Shown here: one piece after another, positions 1-3,000 of the stretch
How positions within the stretch are numbered: position 1 is the first letter of the stretch
How the letters are laid out: the number at the start of each line of letters is the position of its first letter
NCBI GenBank assembly: GCA_964560085.1
Contig: CAZLKF010000004.1
Span: 15,554-79,553 of the forward strand
DNA: 64,000 nucleotides
Direction: 5' to 3'
Source of the DNA: an uncultured Muribaculaceae bacterium
GTDB lineage: Bacteria > Bacillota_I > Bacilli_A > RF39 > UBA660
Position numbers: made by a program

Positions 1-3000
1 TTGATGTTATTAATCTGAAAAATGAGATGATCGAAAAATTAGAAAGCAATATAAAAACTAAAGATGATATCATTAGTAAGAAAAGTGAAAAAGTAACGAT
101 TAAATCAACAAATTTCTTGCCAGTCATTTTAATTACAATTGGGGTTATGTTTCTAATATTTGCAATATATAAAAGTTTCAATAGAAATGTCGAAATAAAA
201 AAATAGCTAGTTTTGTCTAAAACAGCGAAATCAAATCATAAATATGATAATATGAAAATCGAGGTGAAAATTATTGCTTGAGTACAATTTTCTATTTAGA
301 AAAGGAATACTTTTTATAAGACTAATGGGTGATATCAATGAATTTACAAGTGATATTATTAATAGAGAAATAAATCCTTTAATTGAAGAAAATGGCATTG
401 AAAATATCGTTTTTAATGTCAAAGGCATTAAAAATATAGATGAGTATGGCATTGAAGCAATTTATGAAAGCTATCTAAAATTAAATCAAAATAATAGTCA
501 TATATCATTATGTGAAATACCCTTTAATTTAAGAACAAAATTTCAAAAATTATTGAGATATATTAATGAAAAGGAAGATGAAATAGCAATATTGAAACAG
601 ACCTAGCAGCAATAATAAAAAAATATCAGAATTTAGTTCATTCAATTATTAATTATTTTCCAAACAATGTTAATAAAGAGGATTTATTCCAAGTTGGATG
701 TATTGGTCTAATAAAAGCTTATAAAAATTATTCAGAATCTTTTAATGTGAAATTTATTTCTTATGCTTATACTTACATATGAGGTGAAATAAAGAAATAT
801 ATTCGTGAGGATAAAAGTTTAAAAATTAGTCGAGGCATTAGCAGTATTAATTATAAAATAAACCAAGCAATTAATTTATTGTCTCAACGCTTAATGCGTG
901 AACCGACAAATAAAGAAATATCTTCTTATTTGGAAATACCAGAAAGTATGGTTGTTGAAGCCCAAAATTCTGTGAATCAAGTTCAAAGTTTAGATGAAAT
1001 TGTAACTATGGATGATACATTCAGTTTATATGAATTAATTCCAGCAACTATAGAAAACATTGATGACAAAATAATGCTTGCTGAAAGCTTAAAAAGTTTA
1101 AACAAAGATGAACAAAAAATCATTGAATTGCGCTATTTTCGTGATAGGACGCAATCAGAAATAGCTTCAATAATGAATACGAATCAAACACAAATATCAC
1201 GCCAAGAGCAAAAAATCCTTTTAAAACTAAGAAGCAACTTAAAATGTTAAGTTGCTTTTTAGTATATAAAAAAATATCTCAAACATAATAAAAAAGGAGG
1301 AATTATTTATGAATAAAGAAGAATATCAAAAAATAATTGATCGCAATTTACCAAAAGAGCACAAAATAAGAAATATCATAGTAGCTTTTATAATCGGTGG
1401 TTTAATCGGAATTATTGGTCAAGGATTAACGGATTTATATGCCTATATTTTTGGAATTCCTACTAAAGAGGCTACAACTTTTACAACGGTAACATTAGTA
1501 TTTATCGGGTGCCTTTTAACTTGTTTAGGAATATTTGATAAAATGGTTCATTTCGCGCGAGCAGGATTAATTGTTCCCATTACCGGTTTTGCGCATTCAA
1601 TGATGAGCGCAACTTTAGAATATAAAAAAGATGGTATGATTACAGGAATTGGCGCTAATATGTTTAAGTTGGCTGGTAGTGTAATTGTTTATGGAGTCGT
1701 TAGTGCTTACGCCTTTGGCCTTATTCGTTATCTAATTTTTGGAGGTTAAAATGACTATTAAATATGATGGAGTATATATAAATGACACAGCCATTGTTGC
1801 CGGAAAATACGAAAAAGAAGGACCACTCGGGAAGTATTTTAATAATACTTATAAAGACTTTTACATGAGTGAAAAAACATGGGAACAAGCAGAAATGCAT
1901 ATGGCAATTGATACAATATCTGCAATTATGTCAAAGCATGATGCTAATCTTCTAATTGCTGGTGATCTTTTAAACCAAATATCAGCATCATCATTTGCAG
2001 CTAATAAATTTAATATTCCTTTTTTGGGTATTTATAACGCTTGTGCAACAGTGACAGAAGGAATGATTATTGCTGCCAATTTTATAGAAAAAGATTTAAT
2101 CGATAATATTATTGTTAATGTATCTTCACATAATAATGCTGCTGAGAAACAATTCCGCTATCCGGTTGAATACGGTGGCCCGAAACCACAGTCAACCACC
2201 TTTACAGTTACAGGAAGTGCTGCTGCTTTACTTAGTAGTAAAAAAAGTAATATTAAAGTTGAAAGTGGGACAATCGGTGCGGTTATTGACTATGGAATAA
2301 CAGATGCTTATGAAATGGGTGCAGTTATGGCCCCAGCGGCAGCTGATACAATTGTTAAACACTTAAAAGCCTTAAAACGTGATGCAACTTATTATGATTT
2401 AATTTTAACTGGAGATTTAGGTGAATGTGGTAAACGAATTTTAAAAGATTTAATGAAAGAACAGCATAAAATGGATTTAAACAACTATAATGATACGGCC
2501 ACAATGATTTATGACATTGAAAAACAAGCAGTTTATTCAGGTGGCAGTGGACCTGCTTGTGCACCACTAGTCACATACACTTATATTTTCGATCAAATGA
2601 AAAATGGCAATTTAAAAAAAGTGCTGTTAGTTGCAACCGGAGCTTTATTATCAACAACAACAGTAAATCAACATGAAACAATTCCAGCAATTGCTCATGC
2701 CATTAGTTTGGAGGCGCTAAATTGATTTACTTAAATGCATTTCTATTTTCAGGTTTTGTTTGTATTATTGGTCAATTAATTTTGGATAATACAAAATTAA
2801 CCCCAGGTCATGTTACTAGTATGTTTGTTGTTGCTGGCGCTTTCTTAGATATATTTTCAATTTATGATAAAATAGTTCTATGGGCTGGGGCTGGTGCAAG
2901 CGTACCAATAACAAGTTTTGGCCATTTACTTATTCACGGAGCTTTAGAAAGTGTTAAGGAATTTGGTTTTATGGGATTATTTTTAGGTATGTTTGAATTT

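What the first reader, a model, noticed from the sequence alone, without database searches (positions are those of the whole stretch)
274..1250. Decayed spoIIA-type operon
In Bacillus the operon is spoIIAA-spoIIAB-sigF. Here a STAS-domain gene is followed after 2 nt by a SigF/SigG-like ORF with three defects. No start codon or RBS follows the upstream stop. About 35 N-terminal residues are missing. A TGA at 780-782 sits in the conserved region 2.3 (YAYTYI*GEIKKY). No anti-sigma kinase gene is present. The STAS protein also lacks the phosphorylatable Ser (DEYG instead of DSSG). The adjacent spoVA genes are intact, so sporulation capacity may be partly eroded, or the sigma may have been replaced elsewhere.
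Basis: partly seen in the sequence, partly recalled or inferred. Interest (0 to 1): 0.55.

Follow-up and report, generated by a model that had tools for sequence, protein, structure and literature searches.

The report
Working sigma-F gene with conserved UGA
This apparently broken sporulation sigma-factor gene is a conserved, selected gene of a small-genome gut Bacilli lineage that lacks the usual anti-sigma kinase, starts at ATT, and carries an in-frame UGA at a former tryptophan codon that must somehow be read.

Summary
The reading "decayed operon" does not hold.

Four of the five "defects" are traits of the lineage:
- Over 1000 homologues are 212-224 aa, so the short N-terminus is normal for the family.
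- No spoIIAB is found in this window or in 12 related loci, whereas about 70 canonical Firmicutes loci have it directly upstream of sigF.
- The STAS phospho-serine is replaced across the clade.
- The sigma ORF starts at a conserved ATT (591-593). NCBI annotates this codon as the start in an orthologue.

The fifth defect, TGA at 780-782, is real.
- It is identical in two independently assembled sequencing runs.
- A second lineage (86% nucleotide identity, dS 0.64) has TGA at the same codon, while closer outgroups have TGG.
- Between the two TGA carriers dN/dS is 0.07 upstream and 0.19 downstream of the stop, the same range as TGG relatives.
- A neutral simulation gives P=0.001 of gaining no further stops.

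The window otherwise uses the standard code.

Best reading: a functional, streamlined spoIIAA-sigF module whose UGA is decoded, probably as Trp by leaky readthrough. No protein evidence is available.

The parts
27..206 (+). 3' end of a conserved membrane-protein gene of unknown function. It is 443 aa in L085, and 358 aa or 437 aa in relatives. It always lies between the PBP gene and the STAS gene.
   Evidence: No Pfam match at E<0.01.
188..194 (+). TGTCGAA, matching the Spo0A-box consensus as I recall it. Invariant in 4 diverged relatives. Candidate Spo0A site of the operon promoter (inferred).
   Evidence: Alignment A3. It overlaps the last codons of the upstream gene, so part of the conservation may be coding.
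214..220 (+). Second 0A-box-like motif: TGTCTAA here, TGTCAAA in relatives. It lies in the intergenic region inside a conserved TTTTGTC block.
   Evidence: Alignment A3. Function is inferred.
261..267 (+). Strong Shine-Dalgarno sequence GAGGTGA for the STAS gene, 6 nt before its TTG start.
   Evidence: Sequence. GAGGTG plus the TTG start is invariant in relatives.
274..606 (+). SpoIIAA-like STAS gene (110 aa, TTG start, TAG stop). The Ser58 position is Glu (IDEYG).
   Evidence: Pfam STAS 9e-12. TIGR02886 scores 41 bits against a cut-off of 115. An HMM built from Firmicutes SpoIIAA scores 90 bits. omega is 0.16-0.26 against relatives.
591..593 (+). ATT, the proposed start codon of the sigma gene. 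It lies inside the last codons of the STAS gene, 13 nt upstream of the STAS stop.
   Evidence: ATT is conserved in 7 distinct sequences. It aligns with the initiator Met of family members and with the ATG of more distant relatives. The NCBI-sourced orthologue P0002 (MBQ4634413.1) starts at this ATT in L004.
591..1250 (+). SigF-like sporulation sigma gene: 219 codons including one in-frame UGA, with regions 2, 3 and 4 present.
   Evidence: Pfam r2, r3 and r4. NCBIfam SigF/SigG 175-179 bits. Over 1000 homologues of 212-224 aa. omega 0.15 against L087.
780..782 (+). In-frame TGA at the codon that is TGG (Trp) in the nearest TGG-carrying relatives and Met, Ile or Leu in the wider family. The context is ATA TGA G.
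   Evidence: Identical in Logan assemblies of SRR8925783 and SRR8925738. Also TGA in L087.
1232..1260 (+). Hairpin (AAGCAACTTAA...TTAAGTTGCTT) followed by TTTTT, spanning the sigma stop codon. Likely an intrinsic terminator closing the two-gene operon.
   Evidence: Sequence. The scan reported the hairpin on the minus strand; the T-run on the plus strand is read directly from the sequence.
1309..3072 (+). Intact spoVAC (1309-1749), spoVAD (1751-2725) and spoVAEB (2722-3072) directly downstream, in the position the spoVA operon occupies after sigF in the Bacillus atrophaeus locus (L049).
   Evidence: Pfam E-values 8e-36, 8e-121 and 8e-32. Same gene order in relatives. The ORF downstream of sigF in L049 was identified as spoVAA from memory, not by a search.

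Best explanation
This is a functional, streamlined spoIIA-type module of an uncultured, low-GC, small-genome Bacilli lineage. NCBI names such MAGs 'Bacilli', 'Mollicutes' or 'Tenericutes bacterium', and the gene content matches what is published for order RF39.

The operon has only two genes: a SpoIIAA-like STAS protein without the phospho-serine, and a short SigF-like sigma. There is no SpoIIAB kinase. The operon is followed by a terminator and then spoVAC, spoVAD and spoVAEB.

Shown:
- The architecture is clade-wide.
- The sigma ORF begins at a conserved ATT overlapping the end of the STAS gene.
- In the sub-lineage containing this window, Trp codon 64 (TGG) became TGA. That TGA has been kept in two species-level lineages while both halves of the gene stayed under normal purifying selection.

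Inferred:
- The UGA is decoded, most probably at low efficiency by ordinary tRNA-Trp(CCA). This would restore the ancestral Trp at a position that also tolerates Met, Ile or Leu.
- Initiation at AUU is weak, or is coupled to termination of STAS translation 13 nt downstream.
- Together these would keep sigma output low and tied to STAS synthesis.
For: Clade traits:
- Homologues are 212-224 aa.
- A SpoIIAB HMM hits directly upstream of sigF in about 70 canonical loci, but never in the window, L001-L011 or L022.
- The Ser58 position is E, N, I, C or S across the clade.
- Field et al. 2024 report reduced or absent spoIIAB and spoIIE in RF39, and still predict sporulation (PMC10868615).

ATT start:
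- Conserved in 7 distinct sequences.
- The NCBI-sourced orthologue starts at it.
- Relatives have ATG with a good SD at the equivalent place.
- Gene callers truncate many intact orthologues to 118-153 aa because the frame lacks a canonical start.

TGA is real and inherited:
- 100% identical sequence in assemblies of two runs.
- TGA at the same codon in L087, at 86% nucleotide identity and with synonymous differences on both sides of the stop.
- TGG in L001-L004 and L097.

Selection:
- omega is 0.068 upstream and 0.185 downstream of the TGA, with dS 0.64.
- TGG-lineage pairs give 0.11-0.18.
- Differences by codon position are 23/18/61, p=9e-8.
- A neutral simulation gives a mean of 6.3 new stops and P(none)=0.0012.

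Standard code otherwise:
- No other internal TGA, and all other Trp codons are TGG.
- 9 genes end in TGA, several in ATGA or TTGA overlaps with the next gene's start.
- Those genuine TGA stops are followed by T (7) or A (2), whereas the internal one is followed by G.

Precedent:
- UGA is read as Trp at low efficiency in B. subtilis, with about 6% readthrough of catA86-TGA (Lovett 1991; Karow 1998, as cited in PMC7918605).
Against: - There is no protein, ribosome-profiling or transcript evidence.
- No readthrough-stimulating structure follows the UGA (z 0.6 and 0.2).
- UGA-G is not, as far as I recall, a classic leaky context.
- Only two TGA-carrying lineages were found, and one is a 1.25-kb contig.
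- The SD before the ATT is weak and distant (AAGGAAG, 13 nt upstream).
- tRNA-Trp, prfB, spo0A and any distant spoIIAB could not be examined, because only 64 kb of the genome is available.
- The idea that attenuation compensates for the missing anti-sigma factor is weakened by relatives that also lack spoIIAB yet have ATG, a good SD and no stop.
Confidence: 0.6

Rival explanations
1. Dedicated decoding rather than passive leak. [quoted passage not shown] UGA would then be read ambiguously or conditionally as Trp: an early step toward the mycoplasma code, or a development-specific switch.
For: - The lineage belongs to the Bacilli group that also contains the Mycoplasmatales (PMC10868615).
- 4-bp anticodon-stem tRNA-Trp that reads UGA occurs in diverse bacteria (PMC13092985).
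- The TGA sits exactly at an ancestral Trp codon.
- Selection is unrelaxed.
Against: - Only 1 Trp-position codon in the window is TGA, and all Trp codons in the other long ORFs are TGG.
- 9 genes terminate at TGA, including overlaps with the next gene's start.
- No tRNA-Trp gene is present in the window or in any related locus to inspect.
Confidence: 0.15
2. A true pseudogene. The nonsense mutation killed sigF, and sporulation is being lost in this lineage.
For: - There is an in-frame stop in region 2.3, so the product terminated at the UGA would be only 63 aa.
- Reductive loss of sporulation is common in these orders (PMC10868615).
- The sigma scores well below the NCBIfam SigF cut-offs.
Against: - The same TGA occurs in a lineage at dS 0.64, with no second lesion in either copy.
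- omega is 0.07 and 0.19 on the two sides, equal to intact relatives.
- P=0.0012 of remaining stop-free under neutrality.
- The adjacent STAS and spoVA genes are intact.
- This rival would require two independent, very recent hits at the same codon.
Confidence: 0.08
3. A split sigma. The N-terminal 63-aa peptide and a C-terminal fragment are made separately and assemble. The C-terminal fragment would be re-initiated after the stop, using the SD-like GAGGTGA (GAGGAGA in L087) that overlaps the TGA.
For: - The TGA creates a GAGGTGA identical to the STAS gene's SD.
- Both halves are under selection.
Against: - No usable start codon lies at a workable distance. The in-frame ATA is 1 nt after the SD-like sequence and the in-frame ATT is 13 nt after it.
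- The break falls within conserved sigma region 2 (Pfam Sigma70_r2 spans residues 9-74 and the stop is at residue 64).
- I know of no natural precedent.
Confidence: 0.05
4. Sequencing or assembly error, or selenocysteine insertion at the UGA.
For: A single-base difference (TGG versus TGA) from the nearest relatives.
Against: - The sequence is identical in assemblies of two separate runs and in the NCBI contig.
- TGA is also present in a diverged lineage from a different project.
- No hairpin follows the UGA that could act as a SECIS element.
- No Rfam hit in the region.
Confidence: 0.02

Closest known systems
Bacillus subtilis spoIIA operon (spoIIAA-spoIIAB-sigF), which lies next to the spoVA operon
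   Same: A STAS anti-anti-sigma-type gene comes first, a SigF-type sigma comes last, and spoVA genes follow immediately. 0A-box-like motifs lie upstream.
   Different: - No SpoIIAB kinase/anti-sigma gene.
- Ser58 of the STAS protein is replaced by Glu.
- The sigma is about 36 residues shorter at the N-terminus.
- The sigma gene starts at ATT and overlaps the STAS gene.
- The sigma gene has an in-frame UGA.
- The spoVA cluster is reduced to C, D and Eb.
Reduced sporulation gene sets of orders RF39, RFN20 and ML615J-28 (Field, Bowerman and Hugenholtz 2024, PMC10868615)
   Same: These are small-genome, low-GC Bacilli. RF39 is reported to lack spoIIAB and spoIIE while keeping enough genes to be predicted spore-formers. 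That matches the clade-wide STAS-sigma pair without spoIIAB found here.
   Different: - That study works from KEGG-orthologue presence and absence. In the parts I read it does not describe the two-gene operon, the loss of the phospho-serine, the ATT start or the in-frame UGA.
- Assignment of this window to RF39 is inferred from the names of related MAGs and from gene content, not tested.
Leaky UGA decoded as Trp by normal tRNA-Trp (B. subtilis cat-86, Lovett 1991; Karow 1998), and conserved in-frame stops with dN/dS<1 (Belinky et al. 2021, PMC7918605)
   Same: An in-frame TGA lies inside a gene that stays under purifying selection, Trp is the ancestral residue, and the expected effect is lowered expression.
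   Different: - Belinky et al. find that most such stops are short-lived, at roughly SNP scale. This one has persisted to dS 0.64 between lineages.
- Readthrough here is inferred, not measured.
AUU-initiated genes such as infC (from my own knowledge)
   Same: A conserved non-canonical AUU codon sits at the position where relatives have AUG.
   Different: No evidence of IF3-type autoregulation. Here the AUU lies inside the upstream gene, 13 nt before its stop, which suggests termination-reinitiation coupling.
prfB programmed frameshift at an in-frame UGA (PMC12421855, seen)
   Same: A conserved early in-frame UGA whose bypass depends on competition with RF2.
   Different: prfB needs a +1 shift at CUU UGA with an upstream SD. 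Here the downstream coding continues in the same frame, so no frameshift is involved.

Membership tests
spoIIA operon (spoIIAA-spoIIAB-sigF) | SpoIIAA-type STAS gene at the start of the operon | tested here: met
   Pfam STAS 9e-12. An HMM built from Firmicutes SpoIIAA scores 90 bits. However, TIGR02886 scores only 41 bits against a cut-off of 115.
spoIIA operon (spoIIAA-spoIIAB-sigF) | Phosphorylatable Ser58 (D-S-S-G) in SpoIIAA | tested here: not met
   The window has IDEYG. Relatives have N, I, C or E at this position, and only 3 of 12 have S.
spoIIA operon (spoIIAA-spoIIAB-sigF) | SpoIIAB anti-sigma kinase gene between spoIIAA and sigF | tested here: not met
   A SpoIIAB HMM finds no hit in the 64-kb window or in L001-L011 and L022. 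It does hit directly upstream of sigF in about 70 canonical loci. The rest of the genome could not be tested.
spoIIA operon (spoIIAA-spoIIAB-sigF) | SigF-type sigma with regions 2, 3 and 4 | tested here: inconclusive
   All three regions are found and the best NCBIfam models are SigF/SigG (175-179 bits), but these scores lie below the equivalog cut-offs of 311-321. Synteny with spoVA supports orthology.
Pseudogene | Relaxed selection (omega near 1) and accumulation of further lesions | tested here: not met
   omega is 0.15 overall, and 0.07 and 0.19 on either side of the stop. There are no other stops or indels against L087. P(no new stop under neutrality)=0.0012.
Pseudogene | Disabling lesion private to one genome | tested here: not met
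   The same TGA is present in L087, at 86% nucleotide identity and from a different project.
Genetic code 4 (UGA = Trp genome-wide) | TGA common at Trp positions, and not used as a terminator | tested here: not met
   This is the only internal TGA in the window and all other Trp codons are TGG. 9 of 61 long plus-strand ORFs end at TGA, several overlapping the next gene's start.
Genetic code 4 (UGA = Trp genome-wide) | tRNA-Trp(UCA) present and RF2 absent | not testable with these tools
   No tRNA-Trp or prfB is found in the window or related loci. The rest of the genome is not available.
Functional UGA readthrough | In-frame UGA conserved across lineages, with the downstream same-frame ORF under purifying selection | tested here: met
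Functional UGA readthrough | Full-length product demonstrated and the inserted residue identified | not testable with these tools
   Needs a reporter assay or proteomics.
Functional UGA readthrough | Weak termination context or a stimulatory element | tested here: inconclusive
   The internal stop is TGA-G, against TGA-T or TGA-A at the 9 genuine stops, but the sample is small. No downstream structure is predicted.
Selenoprotein gene | SECIS hairpin just downstream of the UGA | tested here: not met
   Folding is no better than shuffled sequence in either lineage (z 0.60 and 0.19). No Rfam hit.
Non-AUG (AUU) initiation | Conserved AUU at the homologous start position, with no canonical alternative | tested here: met
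   The NCBI-sourced orthologue starts at this ATT.
Non-AUG (AUU) initiation | Shine-Dalgarno sequence at functional spacing, or a mapped N-terminus | tested here: inconclusive
   Only AAGGAAG or AGAGAAG about 13 nt upstream. The N-terminus cannot be mapped with these tools.

The most novel reading that the evidence does not exclude
In a spore-former lineage that has lost the SpoIIAB/SpoIIE partner switch, control of the forespore sigma factor has moved to translation. An AUU start coupled to STAS translation, together with a conserved in-frame UGA whose decoding depends on RF2/tRNA-Trp competition or on a conditional suppressor tRNA, would act as a developmental gate on sigma-F synthesis.
Probability: 0.15. 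Interest if true: 0.75.

Novelty: new variant of a known kind. Interest (0 to 1): 0.5.

Why it matters
- Annotation. Automated pipelines and pseudogene filters would score this lineage as lacking sigF. Gene callers here emit 118-153-aa fragments even for intact orthologues, because of the ATT start. That would bias predictions of which uncultured gut Bacilli can sporulate.
- Biology. The locus is a natural example of a key developmental regulator kept under selection with two translation-lowering features: an AUU start and an in-frame UGA that has persisted between species. It occurs in a clade that lacks the SpoIIAB anti-sigma factor in this operon.
- Experiments. If readthrough is confirmed, this is a tractable case for studying how long-lived in-frame stops are tolerated or used, and what a STAS protein does without its kinase partner.

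Tried and rejected
- Code 4 (UGA = Trp genome-wide): rejected by the codon census of the window.
- Sequencing or assembly error: rejected by identical assemblies from two runs and by the diverged L087.
- Selenocysteine: no SECIS-like fold.
- -1 frameshift fusing the STAS protein to the sigma: there is no slippery heptamer in 582-603 (read), and relatives have separate genes.
- Two metagenome-contig scans gave nothing useful. A DNA pattern across the W/* codon found nothing, and a protein search found one distant hit, L090.
- The genome-contig scan returned only relatives at 52% identity or less and did not find the source genome, so taxonomy rests on the record titles of related MAGs.
- tRNA scans of the window and 19 related loci found no tRNA-Trp.
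- Pfam on the conserved gene upstream of the STAS gene gave nothing credible.
- The idea that attenuation compensates for the loss of SpoIIAB is kept only as speculation. Relatives that also lack spoIIAB have ATG, a good SD and no stop.
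Full report
**1. What is in the sequence**

The window is about 27% GC and is densely packed with plus-strand genes. Bases 274-606 encode a 110-aa STAS protein with a TTG start behind a GAGGTGA Shine-Dalgarno sequence (Pfam STAS 9e-12).

In the frame of codon 780, stops lie at 564, 567 and 579. The frame is then open to 1250 except for a single TGA at 780-782. The translated product carries sigma-70 regions 2, 3 and 4. It matches the NCBIfam SigF/SigG models best, at 175-179 bits, covering positions 15-231 of the 231-position SigF model. 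These scores are well below the equivalog cut-offs.

Downstream are a hairpin with a T-run at 1232-1260, then intact spoVAC, spoVAD and spoVAEB.

**2. The genetic code of the window is standard**

Among all stop-to-stop frames of at least 100 codons, no other gene contains an internal TGA, and all Trp codons in the other genes are TGG. Nine plus-strand genes end in TGA, several as ATGA or TTGA overlaps with the next gene's start. Genome-wide UGA=Trp is therefore excluded, at least for these 64 kb.

**3. Four of the five "defects" are lineage traits**

A protein search found 1167 homologues at E<=1e-10. Full-length members among the best 120 are typically 212-224 aa, so the short N-terminus is normal for this family.

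I built SpoIIAB and SpoIIAA HMMs from Bacillus loci and searched 84 fetched loci plus the window.
- SpoIIAB lies directly upstream of sigF in about 70 canonical Firmicutes loci.
- It is absent from the window and from all twelve loci of the related MAG clade (L001-L011, L022). NCBI titles name most of these 'Bacilli', 'Mollicutes' or 'Tenericutes bacterium'.
- In that clade the STAS gene is followed directly by the sigma gene. Where the flanks reach far enough in the close relatives, spoVAC, spoVAD and spoVAEB follow.

The Ser58 position of the STAS protein is E, N, I, C or S across the clade. The STAS gene itself is under purifying selection, with omega 0.16-0.26.

This agrees with Field, Bowerman and Hugenholtz 2024. 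[quoted passage not shown] With no kinase and no phosphatase, loss of the phospho-serine is expected. [quoted passage not shown] This is already published at the level of gene presence and absence.

**4. The start codon**

More distant clade members have ATG preceded by a good SD just after the STAS stop. In the sub-clade containing the window, the codon at the position of the family's initiator Met is ATT.
- It is conserved in seven distinct sequences: window, L087, L001, L003, L004, L097 and L098.
- It lies inside the last codons of the STAS gene, 13 nt before that gene's stop.
- The orthologous protein P0002, which carries NCBI accession MBQ4634413.1 and comes from assembly GCA_017415285.1, starts at exactly this ATT.
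- Other gene callers, finding no canonical start, truncated intact orthologues to 118-153 aa, or switched to code 4 and over-extended them.

The absence of ATG, GTG or TTG is therefore a conserved property of intact orthologues and not a lesion. The SD is weak and distant (AAGGAAG, 13 nt upstream). I therefore infer either inefficient AUU initiation or re-initiation coupled to termination of STAS translation. This step is inference.

**5. The TGA**

The TGA is reproduced with 100% identity in per-run Logan assemblies of SRR8925783 (L085, L089) and SRR8925738 (L088), and in a 97.5-kb NCBI contig.

The closest different sequence is L087, from ENA ERZ27298658. It is 86% identical in nucleotides and 81% in protein, and it has TGA at the same codon. 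Synonymous differences lie immediately on both sides: TAC ATA TGA GGT in the window against TAT ATA TGA GGA in L087. L001-L004 and L097 have ATT TGG there, and the wider family has Met, Ile or Leu.

The simplest history is a single TGG-to-TGA transition in the common ancestor of the two lineages. All of their divergence then post-dates the stop. That divergence shows the following.
- dS is 0.64 and omega is 0.15 overall: 0.068 for the 63 codons before the TGA and 0.185 for the 155 after it.
- These values are indistinguishable from pairs of TGG-carrying relatives, at 0.11-0.18. For example, L003-L097 has dS 0.62 and omega 0.156.
- Differences fall 23/18/61 on codon positions 1, 2 and 3 (p=9e-8), and the skew is significant in each half separately.
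- 5000 neutral simulations with the observed substitution spectrum gave a mean of 6.3 new stops and P(none)=0.0012.
- There are no indels between the two sequences.

The gene is therefore being maintained on both sides of the stop.

**6. How the UGA is probably handled**

No tRNA-Trp, prfB or suppressor candidate lies in the window or in the related loci. No hairpin follows the UGA, with z-scores of 0.6 and 0.2, and Rfam reports only two T-boxes and one tRNA elsewhere in the window. This argues against selenocysteine and against a structured readthrough signal.

The nine genuine TGA stops in the window are followed by T (7) or A (2), whereas the internal one is followed by G. This is suggestive, but the sample is small.

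UGA is known to be decoded as Trp at low efficiency by normal tRNA-Trp in B. subtilis. Readthrough of catA86-TGA is about 6% and rises in prfB mutants (Lovett 1991; Karow 1998, as summarised in PMC7918605). Conserved in-frame stops with dN/dS<1 have been reported as widespread but mostly short-lived.

Near-cognate reading would restore the ancestral Trp, and the position tolerates W, M, I or L in the family. I therefore favour low-level readthrough as Trp. A dedicated or structurally altered tRNA-Trp, as described in PMC13092985, is the main alternative. A split sigma re-initiated at the SD-like GAGGTGA created by the mutation is unlikely, because no usable start codon follows at a workable distance.

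**7. Regulation upstream (inferred)**

A TGTCGAA motif (188-194), which matches the Spo0A-box consensus as I recall it, is invariant in four diverged relatives. A second TGTC(T/A)AA (214-220) lies inside a conserved block upstream of the STAS gene. This is consistent with Spo0A control as in Bacillus, but the first motif overlaps coding sequence.

**8. Verdict**

The "decay" reading is not supported for this genome, although the locus is a reduced version of the Bacillus operon.

The two-gene architecture belongs to a known kind, the spoIIA operon, and matches the published loss of spoIIAB in RF39. What I did not find described in the papers I read is the combination of three things: a conserved AUU start, an in-frame UGA that has persisted between species, and unrelaxed selection, all in the forespore sigma gene.

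What the STAS protein does without a kinase partner, and whether the translational features are regulatory or merely tolerated, remain open. The idea that they compensate for the missing anti-sigma factor is weakened by relatives that lack spoIIAB yet have an ordinary ATG start and no stop.

Noticed in passing
window 9920-10597 (+): A second sporulation-type sigma gene (225 aa, GTG start). Its best NCBIfam matches are SigK/SigE, at only 96-103 bits against cut-offs of 250-350. It appears intact, so a further sporulation-type sigma gene lies within 10 kb of the sigF-like gene.
   Followed up: partly
window 36954-38736 (+): A small sigma gene (176 aa, regions 2 and 4) followed by a 416-aa protein with an RsgI-like central domain and two PepSY domains. 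This looks like a SigI/RsgI-type sigma/anti-sigma pair.
   Followed up: no
window 14638-15714 (+): Ribosomal protein S2 carries a C-terminal extension that ends in a Rho_N domain (residues 324-357 of 358). This is an unusual fusion.
   Followed up: no
window 11416-11593 and 49136-49376 (+): Two T-box leaders, upstream of a class I Glu/Gln-type tRNA synthetase gene (11611-13266) and of asnA (49616-50584). A tRNA-Glu(CTC) at 13306-13382 sits directly after the synthetase gene.
   Followed up: no
window 7012-9520 (+): A peptidase-C39 ABC exporter of the kind associated with bacteriocin export (711 aa), followed by a 130-aa protein with no family match.
   Followed up: no
window 50997-56231 (+): Three small or medium ORFs with no Pfam match, then a radical-SAM/GNAT fusion protein (604 aa) and a PmbA/TldD-like peptidase. 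This may be a peptide-modification cluster.
   Followed up: no
window 56575-63673 (+): A low-GC stretch (22-25%) with PcfJ-like, DnaB_C-like ATPase, GNAT and NERD nuclease genes and several ORFs with no match. It looks like an integrated mobile element or a defence island.
   Followed up: no
window 33990-36854 and 41431-41928 (+): An unusual concentration of NUDIX (four) and GNAT (two) genes in a row, with further GNAT genes elsewhere in the window.
   Followed up: no
window 27-206; L085 567-1898; L004 4294-5607: A conserved gene of unknown function, with a C-terminal membrane segment and no Pfam match, always sits between the PBP gene of the mraZ-rsmH-ftsL-pbp cluster and the STAS gene. It is one ORF of 437-449 aa in some genomes and is split into 75 + 358 aa in others.
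   Followed up: partly
L003 3489-4223 (P0001); P0007: Public protein predictions for some orthologues were made with code 4. They carry a spurious N-terminal extension of about 25-27 aa that runs through TGA codons over the STAS gene. This is an annotation artefact that could mislead homology-based start calls.
   Followed up: yes
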